Under the pieces are notes generated by a model. It was not told the DNA's origin, made no database searches, and worked only from the letters and a program-made list of their open reading frames with translations. From a virus (lineage: Duplodnaviria > Caudoviricetes), in the IMG/VR virus record IMGVR_UViG_3300020576_005251, positions 1 through 64,000 of that record: a DNA stretch of 64,000 nt; one strand, 5' to 3'. The position numbers were made by a program, and so were the translations under genes. The number at the start of each line of letters is the position of its first letter. Within the stretch, counting starts at the first letter, position 1. Positions 50,314-64,000 of the stretch are shown in pieces.

Positions 50314-52286
50314 ACTTCTTCCACCTTCGCAATGGGTTTGGTGACTGAGGCCGCGTACTTGCAGCCCTTCCCGAATGGGACGATCTGTTCGTCATAGCAC
50401 GTGTCGATGCGGTCGCACGAGGTGCACGCGATCGCATCCGACATGGTGAGGCCGACGCTCCGCTTGAACCGGAACGACGCCTCGACAAAGCGGTCGGCAA
50501 CGACGCCGCTCTTCCTGGAGCTGAGCAGTCGGTAGACCGTCATCTTGCGCAACTGTCCCGGGCGGTTGTTCCGCTCCAAGGCTTGATCGTACTGGAGCGG
50601 CTTCCAGGGCAGAGAGTACACCATCGTGTAGTTCGCCTGCTGAAGATTGATGCCCACCGCAGCGCTGATGATGCCGATCAGCACGCGGCACTCCGGGTCT
50701 TCTCGGATCGCGGCTTCGATCAGTCCGGTCTTCCCAGATGTCGAGCCGTCGAGTCGAACGGTCTTGACACCCATGGACTTTGCGACGCGCTCCATGTCGT
50801 CGAGCTCGGGCCCGAAACACCCCCAGCACAGGACTTTATTGGTCGGGTCTTCCTGAAGGATCGTGCGCAAGAGATCCTCGAACACCTCCAGCTTGGGGTT
50901 CTCCACGTCCCGAATCGCCTTTGGCTTGATCGCCTTGGGGAACGGAACGCACTTCTTGGTGTACGGCTTGATGTCCTCTTCGACGCAGTGCTGCATGCGC
51001 GGACACGCATCGCACACCATCGTGTCCGCCTTGTCGTACATGAACCCCGACACCAGCTGCAACAGCTTGTTGACCCGGGCGGCGCCGTGGGGGACCTGGA
51101 AGAGCGGGTCGAGATCCGACCCCATACGCTCTTCGACGGGTTGCAGATACTGACCATCCGGGGTGATGGACGCGCGCATCGTCGCGACGAGTTCGTTGTA
51201 GCGTGCCCGCTGGTTTCGTCCCAGATCGTACGTGACATCCACGATCACCTGCTCGGGCAGATCCAGGCAATCTTTCTTCTTCATCCGGGTGACGACCGAG
51301 TCAACGACCGCGTTGATCTCCTGGAGGTTCTGGTAGCCGACCAGCACTTTGCGGGTGCCGCGCGCATTGAACACGTAGTAGCGCTCCTGAAACTTCGTCC
51401 AGGAGTAGGGCAGGAGCCAGGAGGCGAGAAACTTGATCTGCGCGTAGATCTTCCCCGGCGTCTCGCCGGGAGTGCCGGTGAGAGCAATACGCCGTACGGC
51501 GCGCGAGGCGAGCTCGAAAACTGCCGTCGTCGGCTTGCTCTCCGGGTTGCCCAGGACGTGGGACTCGTCCACGATGATCGTGTCGTAGTCCAGTTCGAGC
51601 AGGCGACTGCGCTCAGGGGCGTGGATAACATCGACGCCGATAAGCGGATCTCCTACCTCGAACTGCGCCTCCAGCTGACAGCGCGTGTACGTCGCGAGGA
51701 CGATGTCGGCCGTCTTCGCCGCCTCACACGCTTCGTCGGAGCCGTCCCATCTCACGACCTTCCACTGGTTGCGTGTCGCGCGGAGCGCTTCGCGGGCCCA
51801 GCCGTCCATGACCACAGGCGGACCGATCACGAGAGCACGCTTGAAGTGGCCATCGTGCCGCAAGACGCGCAGCCCGTCGATGGCGGTGCGCGTCTTGCCC
51901 GTGCCCATGTCCCACTGGAACCAGCATCGGGGCCAGTGTCGGATTCGTGCGATGCCCGCACGCTGGTAGCTGTACGGAGGGAAGTCCGACGAGAAGAAGT
52001 CGGGAGGCAAGTCCGCGAGGTCCGATGATGCCGGGTCCTCCCACTTGGTGGCTTCCGTCTGTAGATTCCGCTCGTGAGCCTGTGCGGCGGCGTCCTGGTG
52101 CAATACGCCGTATACGACGCGGAGGTCGCGCAGGACGCGCAACCCAAAAGGGTAGTACGCCGGGAACACCCACGCGTTGAGCTCGGGGATGTAGGTGCCG
52201 TGGCTCACGCGCTTGGTGCCGTCCTGAGGCTCGCCGCGCACCACGAACGCGGCGGCGCCTTGAATCATTGTGCCACTTACGATCAT
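50310..52286 (-). CDS. SNF2-family helicase/ATPase
   Basis: YQ Q-motif, DMGTGKT, VDESH, LTGTP, GINLQ and QALERNNRPGQ; ATG 52286 has an AGGA SD. Confidence 0.9.
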   Translation of the reverse strand: MIVSGTMIQGAAAFVVRGEPQDGTKRVSHGTYIPELNAWVFPAYYPFGLRVLRDLRVVYGVLHQDAAAQAHERNLQTEATKWEDPASSDLADLPPDFFSSDFPPYSYQRAGIARIRHWPRCWFQWDMGTGKTRTAIDGLRVLRHDGHFKRALVIGPPVVMDGWAREALRATRNQWKVVRWDGSDEACEAAKTADIVLATYTRCQLEAQFEVGDPLIGVDVIHAPERSRLLELDYDTIIVDESHVLGNPESKPTTAVFELASRAVRRIALTGTPGETPGKIYAQIKFLASWLLPYSWTKFQERYYVFNARGTRKVLVGYQNLQEINAVVDSVVTRMKKKDCLDLPEQVIVDVTYDLGRNQRARYNELVATMRASITPDGQYLQPVEERMGSDLDPLFQVPHGAARVNKLLQLVSGFMYDKADTMVCDACPRMQHCVEEDIKPYTKKCVPFPKAIKPKAIRDVENPKLEVFEDLLRTILQEDPTNKVLCWGCFGPELDDMERVAKSMGVKTVRLDGSTSGKTGLIEAAIREDPECRVLIGIISAAVGINLQQANYTMVYSLPWKPLQYDQALERNNRPGQLRKMTVYRLLSSRKSGVVADRFVEASFRFKRSVGLTMSDAIACTSCDRIDTCYDEQIVPFGKGCKYAASVTKPIAKVEEV

Positions 52287-52303
52287 GTGCCTATCCTTCC
52301 CTG

Positions 52304-54001
52304 GTGTACGACGAATCATTCATGAGTTTTGGCGGGCCTCGGGGGAACACACACCCGAACCCGATGTACGACTACTTCACGGCGCTGACCCCCAGGCGCC
52401 TGAAGGAGCTCTTCAAGCTCGCGCAGTTCGTCGGCATCAACAGCGCCCACATCTACGGAGTCCTGCGCAAGTTCGGTGAGATCCCGATCACGCGCTTGGT
52501 GTTCGAGACCGTCGTCGAGACCGAGCTCAAGCAGCACGAGAAGCTCTTCAACGAGCAGCTTCGGCTGTGCGGCTTTCTGACGATGGCCTCGTTCGACCTC
52601 CAGCTGACCGGGAACTCCATCGTCACGATGTACGAACCGATTCAGCGTGACCTGATCTGCACTCGATGCCACACGCCAGAGAACATCGAGGCGGCGGACT
52701 ACTCGTTCAACCTCGACAAGACCGAGTTCCGTCACGACTGCCGCAAGTGCGGGGTGACGCGAGTCCTGTCGAAAGTGAAGGACACACAGCTCAAGGACTC
52801 CTCCAAGATCCGGCTGCTGCGGCTCGATCCTCTGCTCGTGGACATCGACCAGAACCGTACCACAGGGGAGACCGAGTACTACTACCAGATCCCGCGCGCC
52901 GATGTGGTCAAGGTGCGTGCAGGCGTCAAGCTCCACATCAATCACACGCCGATCGAAGTCCTCCAGGCCATGCGCAACGGCAAGGTCATCAAGCTGGACC
53001 CGTCGAACGTGTATCACATGCGTAAGCCTGCGCCTGCGGGGCTGGATGGCCAGTGGGGTCTCCCGCCGCTCGTGGCGGCAATCAAGCTGTTCATGTTCGC
53101 GGCAACTCTGCGGCGTGCGAACGAGGCGATCGCGCTGGAGTACATCACTCCCTTCCGCGTGATTCACCCCATGGCGGCGAGCGGTCAGGGCGACCCGATA
53201 ACGACTCTGAACCTGGGGCGTTGGAAGGATGAGATCCAGGAGAACATGCGGATGCACCGGAGAGATCCGCTGCGCGCGATGTTCGCCCCCATCCCCATCG
53301 GCGTGCAGAACATCGGCGGCGACGGGCGTACTCTCCTGACACTCGGCGAGCTACAAGAGGCCGAGAAGTCAATCATCCTCTCGCTGGGCGTTCCCTATGA
53401 GTTCGCGGTGGGCGGCATGGGGCGGCGCAGCGGCGAGGTCGATCTGCGGATGATCGAGAACCAGCTCCGCACGCACACCGAAGACCTCAACGGTCTGGTG
53501 GCGTGGGTCGAGCGACGTGCGACCACGTTCCTCGGCTGGAAGAGCGTTCCGACCAAGCTCGTGGAGTTCAAGCTCCTCGACGATCTGACCAACAAGCAGC
53601 TGCTCATCCAGCTCTGGCAGGCCGGATCGGTGAGCAAGACGACGGTCTCTCAGTCGGTGGACGTGGACCTCGCGCATGAGCGTGAACTCATCAAGCAGGA
53701 GACGCTGAGCGACGCACGCTCGCGCGCTGAGACGGAGATCTTGATCGCCAAGGAGCAGTCGTCGCTCTCCGCATCCGCGCAGCGCAAGGCGTTGATGGGT
53801 GGCGGCGGTACGGCGTACGATCAACAGCAGGTGTTCAGCATGAACGCCCCGCTGGCGCAAGAACTGGCTGCGCTGGATCCGAGTTCGCGAAAGAGTCGTT
53901 TGATCGCCCTGGAAAAGGAAGACCGGGTTGCTTACGCGGTCGTGATGGTAATCTTGGCGGATCTGGAGCGCGGAGGCGCCCAGCAAGGAGCGCCCGTATG
54001 A
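52304..54001 (+). CDS. Probable portal protein with Zn-finger insert
   Basis: About 565 aa; VYHMR...WGLPPL...RANEAIA portal-like segment and CTRC/CRKC; in-frame GTG 52304 lies 6 nt after TATCCT. Confidence 0.6.
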   Translation: MYDESFMSFGGPRGNTHPNPMYDYFTALTPRRLKELFKLAQFVGINSAHIYGVLRKFGEIPITRLVFETVVETELKQHEKLFNEQLRLCGFLTMASFDLQLTGNSIVTMYEPIQRDLICTRCHTPENIEAADYSFNLDKTEFRHDCRKCGVTRVLSKVKDTQLKDSSKIRLLRLDPLLVDIDQNRTTGETEYYYQIPRADVVKVRAGVKLHINHTPIEVLQAMRNGKVIKLDPSNVYHMRKPAPAGLDGQWGLPPLVAAIKLFMFAATLRRANEAIALEYITPFRVIHPMAASGQGDPITTLNLGRWKDEIQENMRMHRRDPLRAMFAPIPIGVQNIGGDGRTLLTLGELQEAEKSIILSLGVPYEFAVGGMGRRSGEVDLRMIENQLRTHTEDLNGLVAWVERRATTFLGWKSVPTKLVEFKLLDDLTNKQLLIQLWQAGSVSKTTVSQSVDVDLAHERELIKQETLSDARSRAETEILIAKEQSSLSASAQRKALMGGGGTAYDQQQVFSMNAPLAQELAALDPSSRKSRLIALEKEDRVAYAVVMVILADLERGGAQQGAPV

Positions 54002-54405
54002 GCACCACAGACCCGTACAAGAAAGCCTTCGGTACCCAGGCCCGGAGCTATGAAGAGGACCAACCCGGAGCGCCGCGCGGACCGATGGGTCCGCAGGCTC
54101 CCATGCGCCCGCTGTCCGCGCACATGGAAGTCTTCGTCATCTACCGCCCGCTGATGACCTGCGTGTTCTGCAAGCGGCGGCTCTTCAGCAGCGAAGATGA
54201 AGACGAGAAACGTGAAACGACAGACCTGATTCCCGACAACAACGAGGAGTACATCTGCCCGCACACGCGTCTGAAGGATCTTCAGCGCTTGATGGCGCGG
54301 GCCAGTGCAGGAGAGGTCGTGATCGGGACGAGCGTTCCGAACACGCTGGTGAACGGAGTCACGCAGGTTCTGGTCTCCTGGGTGGTCTTATCCCCAAAGA
54401 GATGA
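53998..54405 (+). CDS. Hypothetical protein (CxxC...CPH)
   Basis: ATGA-coupled to the portal gene. Confidence 0.6.
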   Translation: MSTTDPYKKAFGTQARSYEEDQPGAPRGPMGPQAPMRPLSAHMEVFVIYRPLMTCVFCKRRLFSSEDEDEKRETTDLIPDNNEEYICPHTRLKDLQRLMARASAGEVVIGTSVPNTLVNGVTQVLVSWVVLSPKR

Positions 54406-54610: not shown

Positions 54611-57600
54611 GTGTCAGAACCCACGCCTATCTTGACCGACGCCAGCGTGATCCGTCAGCGCATGCACGAGAAGTCGATCTCGGCGATCGCGTCGACCTTC
54701 CCGCTCACGCTCCGCAACGGGACGCTGGAGGTGCAAGACCTCAAGGTCGTCACGCGGCAGTTCAGCCCGATCGACCAGTACAACGCGCTGATGCGCGAAG
54801 GCACCCTTCAGGAAGCGGTGAAGGGCACCCTCGTCCTCAAGGACAAGGAGGGCAAGGTCGTCGACACGGCGAAGAACTTCACCCTCGTACACGTGCCCCA
54901 TCTGACCGAGCGTCACACGTTGATCATGGGCGGCAACGAGTATCAAGTCGCCAACCAGCTTCGGCGCAAGCCGGGCGTGTACACGGCGCGCGCCGACAAC
55001 GGCGAGCTGCGGGCGATCTTCAACCTGGGGCGCGGCAGCAACTTCAACCTGGGCTTCACACCCGACAAGGGCACCTTCCACGTCCAGCTGGGGACCTCCA
55101 ACATCCCGCTCTACCCCGTGCTCCGCGCGGCGGGCGTCAGCCACGAGACCATCGCCCACCACCTCGGCGACGCGGTGGCCAAGGCCAACCAGACCTACCA
55201 CGGCAAGGAGGAGGAACGCGCGACCGGGAAGCTCTACGCGAAGCTGGAGCACCCCGCGCTGTTCAACGCGAACCTCCCGCACGCGGAGAAGGTGGAGGCG
55301 ATCCGCAAGAAGTGGGACGTGACCACGCTCGACCCCCACGTGACGGAGGCGACTCTCGGTACGGCGTATTCAAAAGTCACCCCCGAGGCGCTGCTGACGG
55401 CGGCACGGAAGGTGCTCGATGTCCACGGCGGTCACAAGGCCACCGATGACACCGACGCGTTGACCTACAAGACCTTCCACTCGCTGGACGACTTTCTGCA
55501 CGAACGGATCAAGCTCACCGCGCGCGCCTGGGTGCCGAAGGCGAAGCTCGCCCTCGCGACCAAGGGCACGATTCACGAGGCGTTGCGCCCTGCGCCCTTC
55601 TCGGATGGCGTGCGAAAGTTCATCACGACCGGCTCGCTGGCGGCGGTGCCGACTGCGATCAACCCGCTCGAACTGATCGATCACGCGGTGAAGGTGACGA
55701 GCCTTGGAGAGGGTGGAATCCCCTCGGATCGAGCCATTCCGCTTGACGCGCGCATGATCCACAACACGCACTTCGGAGCACTGGATCCGATCCGTACGCC
55801 TGAGTGTTTTCCGCCTGACGTCGAAGTCTGCACTCAACGGGGGTGGGCGCGTTGGGACGATGTGAGTGACTCGGACGCGTTCCTGACGATGGCGGGGGAC
55901 CTCCGCGTATTCCAGCTCCCTGAGCGTATCGTGCGTGAGCCCTACGAAGGGCTCATGTGTCACATGACAGGTGAGCATATCGACTGCGTGGTCACACCGA
56001 ACCACCGTGTATACGGGCGTGCGACCGAGCTTGCAGATGACGCCTTCGTGCAAGCGTGGGAACTTCAGGGCGCGACCCAGTGGTACTTCCCTACGGAGGA
56101 CCCGAACTTCGACTCCGTGTATGAGAGCGCACTCAGCACCTCAGTACAGCCCTATCGCGGCATGGTCTACTGCGCGACCGTCCCTGGGGGGCTCCTCTAT
56201 GTCCGCCGAAACGGTTGTACGCCGTATTGGACCGGCAACTCCAGTCACTCCGGAGTGGACATTCGCGCCACCATCGCCGCCCACCGCGACGAGGCTGGCA
56301 ACCTCTACACCGTCGCCACGAACGTGAAGACGAAGCGTGAGGAGTTCCTGCGCGCCGGAGACCTGCGGAAGTACGTGGTGGCGTTCCCCGGCGAAGAGCT
56401 CAAGGGGACGGTCGACGCCTTCAAGAACGGGCGTGTCGAGCGCGTGCCTGCGAGCACGGTGACGCACCAAATCGCTCACACCTCGCACCTCTATTCCCCT
56501 GCGACCACACTCCTGCCGCTGATCCACGGCATGCAGGGCAACCGCGCGATCATGGCGTCGAAGATGGGCACCCAGGCGTTGCCGCTCATCGAGCGGGAAG
56601 CCCCCTTCGTGCAGTCGAAGAGCCACCTGCCGGGTGAGATCAGCTTCGAGGCGATGTACGGGCACATGATCGCGCCGAGGGCGCCGGTCAGTGGGAAGGT
56701 GGTGAAGATCGAGGATGGGTGGATTCACATTCGGCCGGAGGGGGTGAAGAAGGCGACACACGCGGATGTGCGACACATCTTCGTCACGGGTCATTCGGGC
56801 TCCGGGAAGTCGACCTACGCCAAGAGTCTGTCGTCTGAAACGGGACTACCCGTTCACCGGCTCGACGACGCCCCCGGGCTGTTGGCCGCGCGCAAGTTGG
56901 GGGACACACCAACCGCAGAACGCCTGTCGCGCGAGGCGGTCGACCGTAGTTTGACGCTGTCGGTACCGCACATCATCGAAGGCACGTCCGCGTTGTTGAC
57001 GCCGGATCGTATGGCAGGGCACCGCGTTGTCTTGATGGACGCCCCGCGCGAGCACATTCTCAACGCGAGACTCCAGCGCGAAGTGGCGCAGGCGGCATCA
57101 CGCGGGGTTCCCGAGGATGTGGGGCGGCGCCAAGCACACGGAGCCGGTCTGTACGACTACTACGCACCACACGTTGATGCCGTGCGGCGTCTGTCGAACG
57201 TCGAAGTTCGAGCGCCGGGGTATGTGCCTACCGCTAAAGAGGCGGCTGAGTTCGTGGCGTATGTCGAAAAGACCGCCGAAGACCGCCCCACCGTCAAGGT
57301 TCGCTCTTTCGGCCCGTTCACGTTCCACGTCGAGATCCCCAAGGGCGCCAAGCCCTTCGGCCACCCGTTCCCCTGCGACTACGGCTACCTCCCGGGGTAC
57401 GTCGGTCCCGACGGCGACTCCCTCGACTTCTGGGTGGGGTCGGACAAAGACGGCGCGTTCGTTTCCGTCGACACCGAGGAGCAGAACGCGAAGGGTGTGT
57501 GGGTCAAGCGGGACACGAAGTACGTCGTCGGGGTGCCAAGCAATGAGGTGCATCTCGTCCTCACGCAGATCGAGCGCAAGCCCAAGACCCGGTGCGTCAA

Positions 57601-60600
57601 CCGACGCGACTACGCGTCGTGGGACGCGCTGACCAAGAGCATCGCGCACTTCAAGGACGAGGACGATCAGGTCGAGAAGACCGCCGCGACAAAGGACGAC
57701 GGACTCGTCCGCGTGCCGTACAGCCAGAACTTCCCGTTCCCTTCGAAGACCAGTCTGAACCACACGCTGAGCGTCAAGCCCGGCGACACTGTGGTAGCTG
57801 GGCAGCGCATGGGCGATTCCAACTACACGAAGGACGGCGTCCTCGCGCTCGGGCGCAACCTCCGCGTGGCGTACGTCCCCCACTACGGCCTGAACTCGAA
57901 CGACGCCGTGGTGATCAGCGAGGCGTGCGCCAAGAAGCTCACGAGCGAGCACGTGTACCGCGAGGTGTTCTCCATCCCGGTCGGCATGGAGTTCAGCAAG
58001 GAGCGGCACCAGTTCTACTACGGGACGAAGTACAGCCCTGCGCAATACGGCGTACTGGACACGCATGGCGTGGTCAAGAAGGGGGTGCGGGTCAACCCGA
58101 AGGACCTCCTGGTCTGCGGACTCGTGAAGACCCAGGTTGTCGGCACCGATGCCATCCTGGGGCGCATCTCCAAGGCGCTCGCCCGCCCCTATCAGGAGGT
58201 CGCGCTCACCTGGAACCACGGCACTCCGGGTGAGGTGATCGACGTGGTCCGTACGGGATCCCAGATCGCGGTCCTGGTGAAGACCATCGAGCAGATGCAG
58301 GTGGGGGACAAGCTCGCGGGTCGCCACGGCAACAAGGGCGTCGTGGCGAAGATCCTCCCTGATCACGAGATGCTGAAGGACGAAGCGGGCAACACGATCG
58401 ACCTCCTCCTGACGAGCGCAGGCGTGATCTCGCGCATCAACCCCTCACAGGTGTTGGAGACCGCGCTGGGCAAGGTCGTTGAGAAGACGGGCAAGCCGAT
58501 CGTCTTCGACAACAACATGCCGAGGAACCTGGAAGCCTGGACCGCTGAGCAGCTCAAGAAGCACAACATCAAGGACAAGGAGCACCTCTACGACCCGGTG
58601 TTGAAGCGTCACATCAAGGGCCCGGACGGCGCGGGCGTGTTCGTCGGGCGCCAGTTCATCTACAAGCTGTTCAAGAGCACCGACACGAACTTCTCGGGGC
58701 ACGGTGTTGGGCCGTACGATCTCAATGAACAGCCCCTGAAGACCGGGGGCGAAGAGTCCGCCAAGGGTATCGGGAAGATGGAGTTCGACGCGTTGATCGC
58801 GCACAACGCGCGCAACTTCCTGCGCGAGGCGTCCGCGATCAAGGGGCAGAAGAACGACGAGTTCTGGCGGGCGATCCAGCTGGGCCTCCCGCTCCCTGCC
58901 GCGAAGTCCCCGTTCGCCTTCAAGAAGTTCGTGGGGATGCTGGAGGGCGCGGGGCTGAAGGTGGATCAGCGTGGCTCCAAGTTCCAGCTGCTGCCGCTCA
59001 CCGACAAGGACATCCTGGCGCGATCGACCGGCGAGATCAAGAAGCCGGAGACGCTCATCGCGAAGAACCTCAAGCCCGAGGCTGGGGGTCTGTTCGACCC
59101 GAGGCTCACCGGGGGGCTTGGTGGGACGTTGTATTCGCACATCGACCTCCACGAGCCCATCCCTCACCCGGTGTTCAAGGAGCCGGTGCGGCGCCTGCTC
59201 GGGCTCACGGAGAAGGGCTTCGACGAGAAGCTCCAGACGCACGGTGGCGCGTGGTTTCACAAGGAACTGAAGGCGCTCGACACCGACCAGAAGCTCAAGG
59301 ATCTGCACGCGCGCCTGAAGACCGCGAAGGGCGCAGACCTCAACGACACCGTCAAGCAGATCAAGTACCTCGACGCACTGAACGCTCACGGCTACAAGCC
59401 GCACGACGCGTACGTCGTATCGAAGGTGCCTGTGGTGCCTCCGGTGTTTCGACCGATCATCGCTCAGCCGAACAACCCTGGGGAGCTGATGATCGCAGAC
59501 GCCAACAAGCTGTACATGCACGTGATGGATTCGAACCACACGCTGAAGAACACAGCGCTGGAGTCCGACATCGGCAAGCACCGCCGTCAGATGTTCAACG
59601 CAGTGGCGGCGCTCTACGGCACAGAGGACGTGGAGAACGACGAGCTGCGCGGACAGAGCGTGAAGGGCTTCCTGTCGAACATCGCAGGTGTCGGCACGCC
59701 CAAGGGCGGGTTCTTTCAGCGCAAGGTGATCCGCAAGACCCAGGACGTGTCGGGCCGTGGCACGGCGGTGCCCGATCCGACCTTGGGCATGGACAACGTC
59801 GGCATCCCCGAGCAGATGCTCTGGCAGATGTACGACAAGCTGATCATCGCGCGCATGGTGCGTCAGGGCCACACGGCGCTCGAAGCCAAGGAGGCCGTAC
59901 TCAAGAAGACGCCCTCGGCGAAGGCGGCGTTCATGCAGGAGATCGGCGAGCGGCCGGTGATGATCAATCGGGCGCCGACGCTCCATCGGTGGTCGATCGT
60001 GTCGGCGTACGCCGTACCCGTGCAAGGGAAGACGATTCGGGTGAACCCGTTTATCGAGAAGGGGTTGAATCTTGACTACGACGGGGATAATCAAGATTCA
60101 ACTGTAATCTTGATTCTGGCAAAGCCGCCTTTTGGCGGTTGTCATAATCGTGGTTCATACCTTGACTTCGTTACTGACAGTGCTACAGTGGTACTCCCTG
60201 GAGACCTTCGTCTCCCTCTCATGGAGGATCACATGGCCGCACGCTTCCGTACCGAAGTCCCTGCCCTCATCAACCAAGAGCTCGTCCTCTGCGATCTCGC
60301 GAACTTCCCACACGGGGAGAAGGTCAGTCAGAATGGGCACATCTCCTTCTACGCCGTGCCGGAGAATGTGTCGGTTCTCGCTCTCGACGAGGCTACCGGG
60401 CGCATCTGTGTGCAGCACCCCACGCTCTGGTCCCACCATGCTCAACGGGAGCGCGTCATCATCACGCTCGGCTCCGAACGACAGATCTTCTCCGACGACG
60501 ATCCGCGCGCTGTCTACGGCCTGGATTCGAATCTGAACTACATCAGGCGGCGCCCCTCGGAGTCCGTGGGCGTCTTCGTACCCGTCAGCTACGGCGCTAT

Positions 60601-61897
60601 CGGCGATGGGGGCGGCGCCACACTCGACACCCTCCCGGCAACCGACAAGGCGCCAGCGTTCCTCCTGACTGAAGATGCCGGGCACCTGATCGGAATGTTG
60701 ATCGGCAACGGATGGGTGGAGCCCTATCGTCTGCGTCTCGCCGGGATGAACAAGGGGATCCAGGCGCAGTTCCGCGCCGCCCTGCCCTCACTGTTCCCTG
60801 GGGTACCGATCAAGTTCGTAGTCTATGGGCACGACGCGAGCGGTGGATTCGGGGACTCAGAGGTCACGTGCGCCACCAGTGAACCCGGCACGCTGTTGTC
60901 TTCTCGGTTCCAGGGTATGTTCGGTCATGGTGCTGAGAACAAGCACCTCCCTACGTGGTTCCTGCGTACGACGTACGCATTCCGTCGGGGGCTCCTGGCT
61001 GGCCTCATCGACACAGACGGGTCTGTGTCAGTCAGCCACGGCAAGAAGAAGCCGCAGTGGATGGTGAACTATTCCAGCCGAAGTGGGCGCCTCGCGCGAG
61101 AGATCGTACTGCTGGCTCAATCGCTGGGTTTGCGCGCGAAAGTCACTCCGGCTAAGACGCCGCTGGGTGAGCCTCACTACGTCGTCAACTTCTCCACAGT
61201 CGAGCTCGGCCGCTTCGGACCGCTCCCCCTGGTTCACACTGAGAAGTCAGTGAAGTTCCGGGAGTTTCAAGCAGACCCTCCGGAAGCCAACGCTTCGTAC
61301 AACGCAACGAACCTCCTGCCGGTACCTGCTACGCTCGCGAAGCAGCTCAGCCGCCTCTTCAAGAGCGGTGGTTCGGATTATGCGAAGTGGTACCAGTCTA
61401 TCAAGAAGGGTTACGTGGCGCGCGCATTCGCGGAGGAGACTCTGACACTACATCCCACTCTGCGCGAGACGGATGACGGACTGATGCGGCGCTGGATCGA
61501 GCTCGTTGACAACAAGACGGTACGCTGGGACCAAGTCACGGAGTTTCGGGAGACCGGCATCGTCGAAGACGGCTACGATCTCACGGTCCCCGGCTATGAG
61601 ACGTTCATGAACGTCGAAGGCGTCATTCTCTCCAACACCCTCCAAGTCCACGCCCCCGTCACCCACGACGCCATCGCCGACGCGAAGAAGATGACCCTGT
61701 CCAACATGCTGCTCGCGGACAACACGCGGAACAAGATCCTCGCGTTCCCGCAGCACGAAGCGATCATCGGCTTCACCCATGGCTCGAAGCTAGCCCCCTC
61801 GAACAAGCCCGTGCGCCACTTCAAGTCGATGGAGGAGGCCATCGCGGCTTACAAACGCGGAGAGCTCGCTGCGAACGACCCGATCGAGGTATCCTAG
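54611..61897 (+). CDS. rpoBC: Multisubunit RNA polymerase beta + N-terminal beta' fusion, with two inteins and inserted kinase and pyrophosphatase domains
   Basis: Beta motifs: QLRRKPGVY, DPIRTPE, NRAIMASKMGTQA, LALGRN, GDKLAGRHGNKG, GKMEFDAL. Beta' motifs: GEIKKPET, GLFD, PVVPPVFRP, NRAPTLHR and catalytic NLDYDGD. Confidence 0.95.
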   Translation: MSEPTPILTDASVIRQRMHEKSISAIASTFPLTLRNGTLEVQDLKVVTRQFSPIDQYNALMREGTLQEAVKGTLVLKDKEGKVVDTAKNFTLVHVPHLTERHTLIMGGNEYQVANQLRRKPGVYTARADNGELRAIFNLGRGSNFNLGFTPDKGTFHVQLGTSNIPLYPVLRAAGVSHETIAHHLGDAVAKANQTYHGKEEERATGKLYAKLEHPALFNANLPHAEKVEAIRKKWDVTTLDPHVTEATLGTAYSKVTPEALLTAARKVLDVHGGHKATDDTDALTYKTFHSLDDFLHERIKLTARAWVPKAKLALATKGTIHEALRPAPFSDGVRKFITTGSLAAVPTAINPLELIDHAVKVTSLGEGGIPSDRAIPLDARMIHNTHFGALDPIRTPECFPPDVEVCTQRGWARWDDVSDSDAFLTMAGDLRVFQLPERIVREPYEGLMCHMTGEHIDCVVTPNHRVYGRATELADDAFVQAWELQGATQWYFPTEDPNFDSVYESALSTSVQPYRGMVYCATVPGGLLYVRRNGCTPYWTGNSSHSGVDIRATIAAHRDEAGNLYTVATNVKTKREEFLRAGDLRKYVVAFPGEELKGTVDAFKNGRVERVPASTVTHQIAHTSHLYSPATTLLPLIHGMQGNRAIMASKMGTQALPLIEREAPFVQSKSHLPGEISFEAMYGHMIAPRAPVSGKVVKIEDGWIHIRPEGVKKATHADVRHIFVTGHSGSGKSTYAKSLSSETGLPVHRLDDAPGLLAARKLGDTPTAERLSREAVDRSLTLSVPHIIEGTSALLTPDRMAGHRVVLMDAPREHILNARLQREVAQAASRGVPEDVGRRQAHGAGLYDYYAPHVDAVRRLSNVEVRAPGYVPTAKEAAEFVAYVEKTAEDRPTVKVRSFGPFTFHVEIPKGAKPFGHPFPCDYGYLPGYVGPDGDSLDFWVGSDKDGAFVSVDTEEQNAKGVWVKRDTKYVVGVPSNEVHLVLTQIERKPKTRCVNRRDYASWDALTKSIAHFKDEDDQVEKTAATKDDGLVRVPYSQNFPFPSKTSLNHTLSVKPGDTVVAGQRMGDSNYTKDGVLALGRNLRVAYVPHYGLNSNDAVVISEACAKKLTSEHVYREVFSIPVGMEFSKERHQFYYGTKYSPAQYGVLDTHGVVKKGVRVNPKDLLVCGLVKTQVVGTDAILGRISKALARPYQEVALTWNHGTPGEVIDVVRTGSQIAVLVKTIEQMQVGDKLAGRHGNKGVVAKILPDHEMLKDEAGNTIDLLLTSAGVISRINPSQVLETALGKVVEKTGKPIVFDNNMPRNLEAWTAEQLKKHNIKDKEHLYDPVLKRHIKGPDGAGVFVGRQFIYKLFKSTDTNFSGHGVGPYDLNEQPLKTGGEESAKGIGKMEFDALIAHNARNFLREASAIKGQKNDEFWRAIQLGLPLPAAKSPFAFKKFVGMLEGAGLKVDQRGSKFQLLPLTDKDILARSTGEIKKPETLIAKNLKPEAGGLFDPRLTGGLGGTLYSHIDLHEPIPHPVFKEPVRRLLGLTEKGFDEKLQTHGGAWFHKELKALDTDQKLKDLHARLKTAKGADLNDTVKQIKYLDALNAHGYKPHDAYVVSKVPVVPPVFRPIIAQPNNPGELMIADANKLYMHVMDSNHTLKNTALESDIGKHRRQMFNAVAALYGTEDVENDELRGQSVKGFLSNIAGVGTPKGGFFQRKVIRKTQDVSGRGTAVPDPTLGMDNVGIPEQMLWQMYDKLIIARMVRQGHTALEAKEAVLKKTPSAKAAFMQEIGERPVMINRAPTLHRWSIVSAYAVPVQGKTIRVNPFIEKGLNLDYDGDNQDSTVILILAKPPFGGCHNRGSYLDFVTDSATVVLPGDLRLPLMEDHMAARFRTEVPALINQELVLCDLANFPHGEKVSQNGHISFYAVPENVSVLALDEATGRICVQHPTLWSHHAQRERVIITLGSERQIFSDDDPRAVYGLDSNLNYIRRRPSESVGVFVPVSYGAIGDGGGATLDTLPATDKAPAFLLTEDAGHLIGMLIGNGWVEPYRLRLAGMNKGIQAQFRAALPSLFPGVPIKFVVYGHDASGGFGDSEVTCATSEPGTLLSSRFQGMFGHGAENKHLPTWFLRTTYAFRRGLLAGLIDTDGSVSVSHGKKKPQWMVNYSSRSGRLAREIVLLAQSLGLRAKVTPAKTPLGEPHYVVNFSTVELGRFGPLPLVHTEKSVKFREFQADPPEANASYNATNLLPVPATLAKQLSRLFKSGGSDYAKWYQSIKKGYVARAFAEETLTLHPTLRETDDGLMRRWIELVDNKTVRWDQVTEFRETGIVEDGYDLTVPGYETFMNVEGVILSNTLQVHAPVTHDAIADAKKMTLSNMLLADNTRNKILAFPQHEAIIGFTHGSKLAPSNKPVRHFKSMEEAIAAYKRGELAANDPIEVS
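55805..56239 (+). mobile_element. Mini-intein (145 aa, no endonuclease) in RNAP beta after TPE
   Basis: Starts CFPPDVEV; block B VTPNH; block F VYCATV; ends WTGN followed by Ser. Confidence 0.9.
56770..57225 (+). other. P-loop nucleotide-kinase-like domain inserted in RNAP beta
   Basis: HIFVTGHSGSGKST (Walker A at 56789-56815), IIEG, and VLMDAP...NARLQR lid-like segment. Confidence 0.75.
57290..57660 (+). other. Inorganic pyrophosphatase-like domain inserted in RNAP beta
   Basis: VEIPKG, PCDYGYLPG, DGDSLD and D-x-K match family I PPase signatures. Confidence 0.75.
60089..61636 (+). mobile_element. Non-canonical intein (516 aa) with LAGLIDADG homing endonuclease, directly after the catalytic DYDGD
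   Basis: HLIGMLIGNG and LLAGLIDTDG; block F GYDLTV; ends ILSN followed by Thr. Removing it restores NLDYDGD-TLQVHAP (compare NADFDGDQMAVHVP). Confidence 0.85.
60162..60235 (+). promoter_or_regulatory. Internal sigma70-like promoter, RBS and in-frame ATG inside intein 2
   Basis: TTGACT 60162-67, 16-nt spacer ending TGC, TACAGT 60184-89, GGAGGA 60223-28 and ATG 60233. Confidence 0.55.
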
Positions 61898-63889: not shown

Positions 63890-64000
63890 ATGGCCAAGAC
63901 GTTCGCGCAGCACCTGATCAACTCGACCCTCCCCGAGGGTTACAAGATGGACGGCCCGGTGACCAACCGTGGCCTCCACGATCACGTGGTCGACCTCGCG
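63890..64000 (+). CDS. Probable C-terminal part of split RNAP beta' (truncated by window end)
   Basis: MAKTFAQHLINSTLPEG...RGLHDHVVDLA resembles the beta' TTxGRxxxNxxLP segment that follows where 54611..61897 ends; only 37 codons are visible. Confidence 0.5.
   Translation, partial: MAKTFAQHLINSTLPEGYKMDGPVTNRGLHDHVVDLA

What the first reader, a model, noticed from the sequence alone, without database searches (positions are those of the whole stretch)
56740..57700. RNA polymerase with a built-in nucleotide kinase and inorganic pyrophosphatase
Seen: between RAPVSGKVVKIEDGWIHI and VPYSQNFP...VKPGDTVVAGQ (two halves of a beta sandwich-barrel hybrid motif) lie about 310 in-frame residues. They comprise a P-loop kinase (GHSGSGKST) and a family I PPase-like domain (EIPKG, DYGYLP, DGDSLD). 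Neither has intein motifs. Established: PPi is the product of NTP addition, and its removal suppresses pyrophosphorolysis. Inference: either the RNAP carries its own PPi sink and nucleotide-recycling module, or this loop is a tolerated cargo site that delivers enzymes together with a virion-packaged RNAP.
Basis: partly seen in the sequence, partly recalled or inferred. Interest (0 to 1): 0.85.

Follow-up and report, generated by a model that had tools for sequence, protein, structure and literature searches.

The report
Phage RNA polymerase carrying enzyme cassettes
A large phage RNA polymerase subunit has a kinase and a pyrophosphatase-like enzyme built in-frame into one surface loop, and related phages carry other enzyme sets or nothing in that loop, so the polymerase appears to double as a carrier of swappable helper enzymes.

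Summary
ORF 54611-61897 (2428 aa) is a phage RNA polymerase subunit: beta fused to the N-terminal half of beta'. It is the ortholog of Salmonella phage Arash Gp206, the protein with most spectra in Arash virions, and like it sits just after the portal gene.

About 325 in-frame residues (716-1040) interrupt a beta-hairpin turn. They fold confidently (pLDDT about 95) into two domains:
- a P-loop kinase with a shikimate/gluconate/NMP-kinase fold;
- an InPase domain (Pfam PF18823), the hairpin-less family I pyrophosphatase described in phage polyvalent proteins.
Neither is an intein.

Among 121 related polymerases the loop is bimodal. It is 12-43 aa in 53 and at least 99 aa in 68. The long loops hold InPase alone, kinase and InPase in either order, GNAT, glycine-zipper or unknown domains. 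Every junction carries an EKTAA-like linker. A 99%-identical relative lacks exactly the 519-nt kinase cassette.

Nearly all complete relatives have one InPase, either as a separate gene or in the polymerase. The kinase is sporadic.

Best reading: a permissive loop of a virion polymerase that displays polyvalent-protein cassettes. A dedicated pyrophosphate sink is possible for the InPase but unproven. "Nucleotide recycling" has no support. This stretch was also noted in another window of the same genome by this scan.

The parts
54611..61897 (+). RNAP large subunit P0001 (2428 aa): beta fused to the N-terminal half of beta'. Ortholog of Arash gp206.
   Evidence: Pfam Rpb2_6 at E 5.9e-39, plus Rpb1_1, Rpb1_2 and Rpb2_3. 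36-37% identity to Arash gp206 and D69 0261. 120 relatives listed.
56678..56752 (+). N-terminal strand of the interrupted hairpin (aa 690-711) plus junction linker J1 (V712-K714).
   Evidence: Alignment A1. Linker motif survey. Low pLDDT at 710-716.
56753..57271 (+). P-loop kinase cassette (A715-K887, 519 nt). It is missing, with codon-exact ends, from the near-identical relative L005/P0002.
   Evidence: DNA alignment A5. AF2 pLDDT about 95. Z 13.9 to shikimate kinase. Profile E 2.9e-7.
56789..56815 (+). Walker A motif GHSGSGKST (aa 727-735). Other family-invariant residues are D752, E790, G791 and R823.
   Evidence: Alignment A4 invariant columns.
57263..57278 (+). Junction linker J2 (VEKTAE). 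First copy of a 16-nt direct repeat.
   Evidence: the repeat finder family D5, 15 of 16 nt identical to the copy at 57671.
57272..57679 (+). InPase cassette (T888-K1023): a family I PPase-like OB-fold domain lacking the K29-R43 hairpin.
   Evidence: AF2 pLDDT 93.5. All top-50 Foldseek PDB hits are PPases. Profile hits. Pfam PF18823 at E 1.4e-3, below the cut-off. Invariant D923, G925, D934, D939, G943, K970.
57671..57686 (+). Junction linker J3 (VEKTAA). Second copy of the 16-nt direct repeat.
57680..57805 (+). Rest of J3 and the C-terminal strand of the hairpin, where the polymerase sequence resumes (T1024-Q1065).
   Evidence: Alignment A1. Alignment to bacterial RpoB structures.
55805..56239 (+). 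Mini-intein (C399-N543) in the conserved TPE|S site of beta. Separate from the finding.
   Evidence: Absent from Arash and D69 in alignment A1.
60089..61636 (+). LAGLIDADG intein-like insertion (N1827-N2342) directly after the catalytic DYDGD of beta'.
   Evidence: Pfam LAGLIDADG_3, Hom_end and Intein_splicing. Alignment A1.
52268..54001 (+). Portal protein gene. The order portal, small ORF, RNAP is conserved.
   Evidence: BLASTP E 7e-88 to Arash portal gp204. Same gene order in Arash, D69 and L005.
63890..64000 (+). Start of a separate 599-aa gene (63890-65689 in the genome). It probably encodes the beta' C-terminal half.
   Evidence: ORF list of the genome. The equivalent gene in L005 has a weak Rpb1_5 hit. 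Arash gp216 is annotated as beta'.

Best explanation
P0001 is the main catalytic subunit of a virion-associated, bacterial-type phage RNA polymerase. In this clade one surface beta-hairpin turn of the beta module has become an extended flexible loop with an EKTAA-like motif. That loop acts as a permissive site for in-frame domain cassettes.

Here the loop holds two cassettes separated by flexible linkers. The first is a P-loop kinase. The second is an InPase domain, a metal-dependent phosphoanhydride hydrolase of the hairpin-less family I PPase type. Both belong to the module repertoire of phage polyvalent proteins.

Shown: the fold and family of both domains; intact catalytic-type residues; the insertion topology; the variability of the loop among relatives; the codon-exact presence or absence of the kinase cassette between near-identical phages; the near-universal presence of one InPase per genome, either as a separate gene or in the RNAP.

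Inferred: the polymerase is packaged in the capsid and enters the cell with the DNA, so the tethered enzymes are delivered at the first moment of infection. The RNAP does not need the cassettes for catalysis, since 44% of relatives lack them. The InPase supplies a lineage-core function: hydrolysis of PPi or of a nucleotide-like pyrophosphate compound. The kinase is an optional accessory whose substrate is unknown.
For: - Ortholog in virions: Arash Gp206 has the highest spectrum count in purified virions (3516 spectra; PMC10585845). The gene order portal, small ORF, RNAP is conserved.
- Insertion topology: alignment A1. In the AF2 model the two flanking strands are present and the linkers have low pLDDT.
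- Folds.
- Loop lengths are bimodal: 53 loops of 12-43 aa and 68 of at least 99 aa, none between.
- Architectures include InPase alone (30), KIN-INP, INP-KIN, KIN alone, INP-INP, GNAT, Gly-zipper and unknown domains.
- On the core tree there are at least 27 changes of insert state.
- The linker motif is present at all junctions and also in the bare loops of insert-less relatives.
- The 519-nt kinase cassette is absent from L005, with about 98%-identical flanks.
- The kinase and InPase also occur, together or alone, in SNF2, NUDIX, ART and 2H polyvalent proteins and in portal fusions (Iyer 2017).
- InPase location in near-complete relatives: a separate gene only in 5, the RNAP only in 7, both in this genome.
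- The kinase is absent from 10 complete relatives, and the same search finds it in this genome as a positive control.
Against: - There is no direct evidence that this phage packages the polymerase. That rests on one distant ortholog (36% identity), and the Arash proteome listed many non-structural proteins.
- No enzyme activity has been shown for any InPase (PF18823) or for this kinase family.
- InPase is in about 55 of 68 occupied loops. This bias suggests a polymerase-specific role rather than neutral cargo.
- I could not place the loop relative to the secondary channel.
- Read support for the junctions could not be checked.
- The near-complete genomes with an RNAP-only InPase fall into about three subclades, so there are few independent events.
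Confidence: 0.6

Rival explanations
1. Integral product-removal module. The InPase is tethered to the polymerase to hydrolyse the PPi released at each nucleotide addition. This would suppress pyrophosphorolysis and drive early transcription. The kinase would regenerate nucleotides nearby.
For: InPase is by far the commonest cassette, in about 55 of 68 occupied loops. Several sequence-distinct InPase types occur in the loop. Each near-complete genome tends to have one InPase, either separate or in the RNAP. Metal-binding Asp residues and K970 are invariant. Iyer et al. 2017 proposed PPi clearance for early transcription.
Against: 53 of 121 polymerases have no insert. The same InPase family is fused to portals of phages with no known RNAP, such as Pa193 and Serratia MTx, and to helicase- or restriction-type polyvalent proteins. 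The hairpin holding K29, E31 and R43 is deleted, so PPi specificity is uncertain. The kinase is sporadic and absent from complete relatives, and its nearest folds are shikimate, gluconate and uridine kinases, not NDP kinase. From general knowledge, host cytoplasm already has abundant PPase.
Confidence: 0.25
2. Selfish in-frame passenger. The cassettes spread and persist like the two inteins in the same gene. They are tolerated because the loop is permissive, and give the phage no benefit.
For: Distribution is sporadic and there are many state changes on the tree. A cassette is present or absent between 99%-identical genes. Direct repeats sit at the cassette borders. The gene also hosts two inteins.
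Against: There are no splicing, endonuclease or transposase motifs. Catalytic-type residues are invariant across homologs of only 30-40% identity. The same domains are maintained in many other phage proteins. InPase is near-universal in the clade.
Confidence: 0.08
3. Proteolytic release. The EKTAA-like linkers are cleavage sites for a maturation protease. Free kinase and InPase would be released in the capsid, and the polymerase would be split into two chains at this loop.
For: The conserved motif is present at every junction and the linkers are predicted to be flexible. Polyvalent proteins are proposed to be processed into units.
Against: In this genome the motif occurs only in the RNAP among 188 ORFs, which is unlike a general prohead-protease site. 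Insert-less relatives keep the motif in a short hairpin turn. There are no proteomic data.
Confidence: 0.12
4. Assembly chimera or frameshift artefact joining unrelated genes.
For: None was found. Reads could not be inspected.
Against: The ORF is uninterrupted for 2428 codons with uniform G+C. Junctions fall on exact codon boundaries and the hairpin strands resume correctly. Independent assemblies from JGI, ENA and Logan show the same arrangement in the same loop.
Confidence: 0.01

Closest known systems
Phage polyvalent proteins with InPase domains (Iyer, Burroughs, Anand, de Souza, Aravind 2017, J Bacteriol; Pfam PF18823)
   Same: The same hairpin-less family I PPase-like domain, in a multi-enzyme polypeptide of a phage that is predicted to be packaged and delivered. 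It co-occurs with P-loop kinases, NUDIX, SNF2, ART and 2H domains.
   Different: Described polyvalent proteins are beads-on-a-string fusions. The only polymerase listed in them is the N4-like single-subunit virion RNAP. Here the modules are nested inside a hairpin loop of a multisubunit-type beta subunit, with a dedicated repeated linker.
Lineage-specific insertions of bacterial RNAP (beta SI1/SI2, beta' SI3; BBM2 and SBHM repeats)
   Same: Large insertions at surface loops between conserved segments of beta and beta'. They are dispensable for basic catalysis and variable between lineages.
   Different: The known insertions are non-enzymatic structural repeats that are fixed within large lineages. 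These are enzyme domains, and they differ between phages with 95-99% identical polymerases.
Portal-InPase fusions (Pseudomonas phage Pa193/E217 gp19, Burkholderia BcepF1, Serratia MTx)
   Same: An InPase domain attached to a virion protein. It is the best PDB sequence hit of the profile (9b41, E 7e-8) and also appears in BFVD.
   Different: There the carrier is the portal and the domain is a C-terminal appendage. It is not resolved in the cryo-EM model, which covers residues 94-528. Here the carrier is the polymerase and the domain is internal.
Salmonella phage Arash Gp206 and Vibrio phage D69 0261 (fused beta-beta'N polymerase next to the portal)
   Same: Orthologous polymerase at 36-37% identity with the same gene neighbourhood. 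Arash Gp206 is abundant in virions.
   Different: They have a 6-9 residue hairpin turn with no cassette, and no PF18823 domain anywhere in the genome.
Canonical family I inorganic pyrophosphatase (E. coli Ppa, M. tuberculosis Rv3628; PF00719)
   Same: The same OB-fold barrel. Equivalents of E20, Y55, D65, D67, D70, D102, K104 and K142 are retained (residue mapping partly from memory).
   Different: About 13 residues are deleted, removing K29, E31 and R43. The domain is not an independent oligomeric enzyme. PF00719 does not match P0001.

Membership tests
Multisubunit RNAP beta/beta' (double-psi beta-barrel polymerases) | Beta motif GDK..GRHGNKG and beta' metal-binding motif NxDxDGD | tested here: met
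   GDKLAGRHGNKG and NLDYDGD are present in the translation. Pfam Rpb2_6 E 5.9e-39 and Rpb1_2 E 2.1e-14. NCBIfam rpoB and rpoC hits.
InPase (PF18823) | Pfam model score above the gathering cut-off | tested here: inconclusive
   P0001 scores 18.9 bits against a cut-off of 26.8. Inserts in the same loop of relatives reach 26.8-112.5 bits: P0032, P0081, P0085, P0105, P0121, P0118. The domains link up in one alignment and profile.
InPase (PF18823) | Family I PPase OB fold lacking the beta-hairpin between strands 1 and 2 | tested here: met
   All top-50 Foldseek PDB hits are family I PPases. The profile alignment to M. leprae PPase shows a 13-residue gap at that hairpin. The feature is defined in Iyer 2017.
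InPase (PF18823) | Conserved acidic metal-binding residues | tested here: met
   D923, D934 and D939 are invariant, as are G925, G943 and K970. E908, D936 and D968 are conserved as acidic residues across 49 sequences.
Canonical family I inorganic pyrophosphatase (PF00719) | Full active site including K29, E31 and R43, and a match to PF00719 | tested here: not met
   No PF00719 hit for P0001 at E up to 0.1. The segment carrying these residues is deleted.
P-loop small-molecule/nucleotide kinases (shikimate, gluconate, NMP kinase-like) | Walker A motif, kinase fold with lid, conserved Asp after strand 2 and lid arginines | tested here: met
   GHSGSGKST. Invariant D752, E790, G791 and R823. Z 13.9 to 2iyq and 13.5 to uridine kinase 3asy. 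Profile E 2.9e-7 to shikimate kinase.
Nucleotide (NMP/NDP) kinase specifically | Membership of a family with a defined nucleotide substrate | tested here: inconclusive
   Only sub-threshold generic hits: AAA_18 at 25.8 bits against a cut-off of 29.4, and AAA_33. The NCBIfam hits are far below their cut-offs. Shikimate, gluconate, uridine and adenylate kinases score within one Z unit of each other.
Intein / Hint domain | Hint fold and splicing blocks with nucleophiles at both junctions | tested here: not met
   No Hint or intein Pfam hit in residues 690-1060. The residues fold as a kinase plus a PPase. The junction residues are K|A and K|T.
Polyvalent proteins (Iyer 2017) | Several unrelated effector or enzyme domains in one phage polypeptide drawn from the recurrent module repertoire | tested here: met
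   RNAP, kinase and InPase are in one chain. The same kinase and InPase families occur with SNF2, NUDIX, ART and 2H domains.
Polyvalent proteins (Iyer 2017) | Packaged into the virion and delivered to the host | not testable with these tools
   Only inferred, from the Arash Gp206 proteomics and the position next to the portal gene.

The most novel reading that the evidence does not exclude
In this large, uncultivated phage clade the virion RNA polymerase has a dedicated docking loop with a conserved EKTAA-type linker. The linker would act as the exchange or processing signal for in-frame enzyme cassettes. The InPase would be an obligate partner of the polymerase that removes PPi, or a nucleotide-derived inhibitor, at the site of early transcription. 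That would be the first multisubunit RNAP with a built-in product-removal enzyme.
Probability: 0.25. Interest if true: 0.85.

Novelty: new variant of a known kind. Interest (0 to 1): 0.7.

Why it matters
As far as I know, the known insertions in multisubunit RNA polymerases are structural repeats, not enzymes. Here a polymerase loop carries catalytic domains that are exchanged between nearly identical phages.

This matters in three ways:
- It extends the polyvalent-protein idea to a new carrier and a new, nested topology.
- It gives a natural series for experiments: a bare loop, InPase only, and kinase plus InPase, in polymerases that are 95-99% identical. That series can test directly whether a tethered pyrophosphatase helps transcription, a hypothesis raised in 2017 and never tested.
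- It identifies a loop that tolerates insertions of 100-540 residues, which could be useful for engineering polymerase fusions.

InPase is present in nearly all of the near-complete relatives examined, usually at only one of the two locations. This marks it as a core but uncharacterised phage function.

Tried and rejected
- tblastn of the insert against 50,697 deposited phage genomes found nothing, so no isolate with this cassette is on hand.
- General protease-site idea: the [EKQ]K[TK]A[AE] motif occurs only in the RNAP among 188 ORFs of the genome, so I did not adopt it as the main reading.
- Identity of the other cassettes: X153 (P0012) and X207 (P0011) gave no Pfam hit, no usable Atlas hit and no PDB sequence hit.
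- Placing the loop on the RNAP structure: only a sequence mapping to bacterial RpoB was obtained. The loop corresponds to the hairpin before the RSNQ-T segment.
- T4 PNK-like polynucleotide kinase: the Walker A and following Asp look similar from memory, but T4 Pnk is not among the 60 best PDB profile hits, so I make no claim.
- PHROGs gave nothing for the neighbours of the separate InPase gene or of the RNAP.
- NCBIfam gave nothing useful for either domain.

Full report
**What is there.** The window is the first 64 kb of a 172,885-bp IMG/VR virus record rated 100% complete. ORF 54611-61897 (+) encodes 2428 aa. Pfam finds Rpb2 domains 2, 3 and 6 and Rpb1 domains 1 and 2. NCBIfam matches rpoB, then rpoC, along the chain. 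The protein is therefore beta fused to the N-terminal half of beta'. A separate 599-aa gene at 63890-65689 probably supplies the rest of beta'.

The nearest deposited phages are Salmonella phage Arash (gp206, 1525 aa) and Vibrio phages D69, D181 and D148, at about 36% identity. In Arash and D69, in a near-identical metagenomic relative (L005) and in this window, the gene follows the portal gene and one small ORF. In Arash, Gp206 was the protein with the most spectra in purified virions (PMC10585845).

**The insertion.** Alignment with the Arash and D69 orthologs shows three extra segments:
- a mini-intein (aa 399-543);
- a LAGLIDADG intein-like element directly after DYDGD (aa 1827-2342);
- the segment in question, aa about 716-1040.

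This third segment sits in the turn of a beta-hairpin that is only 6-9 residues long in Arash and D69. The hairpin corresponds to the one preceding the conserved RSNQ-T segment of bacterial RpoB.

AlphaFold2 on residues 700-1060, with a 79-row alignment, gave mean pLDDT 86. Two compact domains score about 95. Confidence is low only at the three junctions.
- Domain 1 matches P-loop kinases. VIA-align gives Z 13.9 to shikimate kinase 2iyq, 13.5 to uridine kinase and 13.2 to gluconokinase. Foldseek agrees, and a family profile finds shikimate kinase at E 2.9e-7. Walker A, D752, E790-G791 and a lid arginine are invariant in 42 homologs.
- Domain 2, folded alone (pLDDT 93.5), returns only family I inorganic pyrophosphatases among its 50 best PDB matches. 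Its profile hits mycobacterial PPases at E about 1e-4, with a 13-residue gap where the K29-R43 hairpin lies. It hits the unmodelled C-terminus of the Pa193 portal at E 7e-8.

Domain 2 is the InPase domain (PF18823) that Iyer et al. defined in phage polyvalent proteins. P0001 itself scores below the Pfam cut-off, but inserts in the same loop of relatives score up to 112 bits. D923, D934, D939 and K970 are invariant. No intein features are present.

**Variable loop.** A search with the conserved core returned 120 cluster representatives at 54-99% identity, with lengths of 1457-2682 aa. I anchored on the flanking strands and measured the loop. Its length is bimodal:
- 12-43 aa in 53 proteins;
- at least 99 aa in 68 proteins;
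- nothing in between.

The content of the 68 long loops is as follows:
- InPase alone in 30;
- InPase in about 55 overall;
- the kinase in 8, one of which is a remnant;
- the kinase before or after the InPase, or alone;
- two InPases in tandem;
- a GNAT acetyltransferase (P0024);
- glycine-zipper segments (P0032, P0037, P0039);
- several domains with no match.

On a tree of the adjacent 430 core residues, insert state needs at least 27 changes, InPase at least 29 and the kinase at least 7. The closest relatives already differ. P0002 (99% identical) and P0003 (95%) have InPase only. P0004 (95%) has an unknown domain plus kinase plus InPase.

At the DNA level, the P0002 contig equals the window minus exactly 519 nt (56753-57271). 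The flanks are nearly identical and only AAG is shared at the breakpoints. IMG/VR loci show the same spectrum. In the most distant members the turn is minimal and lacks the motif.

**Linkers.** Every cassette boundary carries a short motif of the form [E/K]-K-[K/T]-A-[A/E]. The same motif makes up the bare loop of insert-less relatives. In P0048 it is simply doubled, with nothing between the copies. In this gene a 16-nt direct repeat (57263 and 57671, 15 of 16 identical) brackets the InPase cassette. The motif occurs nowhere else in the 188 ORFs of the genome. That argues against a general maturation-protease site. It fits an ancestral loop sequence that is duplicated at each insertion and may guide cassette exchange.

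**Where else the domains occur.** An exhaustive search with the insert found 242 proteins. Only four of the 147 newly listed hits carry the polymerase flanks. The others include SNF2-kinase-InPase, NUDIX plus several kinases, and 2H-ART-kinase proteins. In BFVD, the InPase appears in proteins named portal, tail, 'mega' and 'large polyvalent'. Both domains are therefore standard polyvalent-protein modules.

**One InPase per genome.** This genome has a second InPase, 36% identical, at the N-terminus of a 427-aa protein outside the window. I searched near-complete relatives for InPase copies:
- Five genomes with a bare polymerase loop each have exactly one InPase, in a separate small ORF.
- Seven genomes with an InPase in the polymerase have only that copy.
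- One 95%-complete record has none.
- One 76%-complete record has both, as here.

These cases represent only about three independent subclades. The kinase profile finds nothing in ten complete relatives, and in this genome it finds only the polymerase copy. Arash and D69 have no PF18823 domain.

**Interpretation.** The evidence best fits a permissive, linker-defined loop of a virion polymerase that displays exchangeable polyvalent-protein cassettes. The InPase is a lineage-core function that can be supplied separately or on the polymerase. The kinase is an optional accessory. Whether the InPase acts on the polymerase's own PPi remains open. The strong InPase bias and the mostly one-location pattern favour a link to transcription. 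The missing phosphate-binding hairpin and the fusions to portals of PB1-like phages, which are not known to encode an RNAP, argue for a more general role in the virion or early infection. An artefact is very unlikely, because independent assemblies share the architecture.

**Novelty.** Full-text searches found no report of an enzyme domain nested in a multisubunit RNAP. The 2017 paper lists only N4-like polymerases among polyvalent proteins. I class this as a new variant of a known kind.

Noticed in passing
window, 36 sites from 796 to 63796: The palindrome TACGSCGTA occurs 36 times, about every 1.8 kb and mostly inside genes. Shuffles predict 0.14 copies. None lies inside the kinase/InPase insert (nearest at 56218 and 58046). 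Other first-stage notes report it genome-wide.
   Followed up: partly
window 60089-61636 (aa 1827-2342 of P0001): A LAGLIDADG intein-like element is inserted right after the catalytic DYDGD. It begins with Asn rather than Cys, Ser or Ala and ends with SN|T, so its N-terminus is non-canonical.
   Followed up: partly
window 55805-56239 (aa 399-543): A mini-intein of about 145 aa (C...GN|S) sits in the conserved TPE|S site of beta. The 99%-identical relative P0002 appears to lack it, since its upstream anchor lies about 162 aa earlier, so inteins also come and go between near-identical genes.
   Followed up: partly
L004 583-1866 (-), which is G000:C1 about 97260-98543, outside the window: A second InPase sits at the N-terminus of a 427-aa protein. 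It is followed by a long Pro/Ala-rich low-complexity stretch and a C-terminal segment that is conserved in the separate InPase protein of relative G001 (L087).
   Followed up: partly
P0056 residues 571-605 (relative, not the window): A kinase remnant about 30 aa long ends at ...GHSGAGKTAAD. The Walker A GK(S/T)T appears joined to a KTAA linker, which suggests that cassette loss can occur by recombination between these similar short sequences.
   Followed up: no
window 63890-64000 and beyond (to 65689): The beta' C-terminal half seems to be encoded by a separate 599-aa gene, three ORFs downstream of the beta-beta'N fusion, as in Arash (gp216).
   Followed up: partly
window 53998-54405: A small ORF (135 aa) between the portal and RNAP genes is conserved in position in Arash, D69 and L005. 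It has no PHROG or Pfam family.
   Followed up: partly
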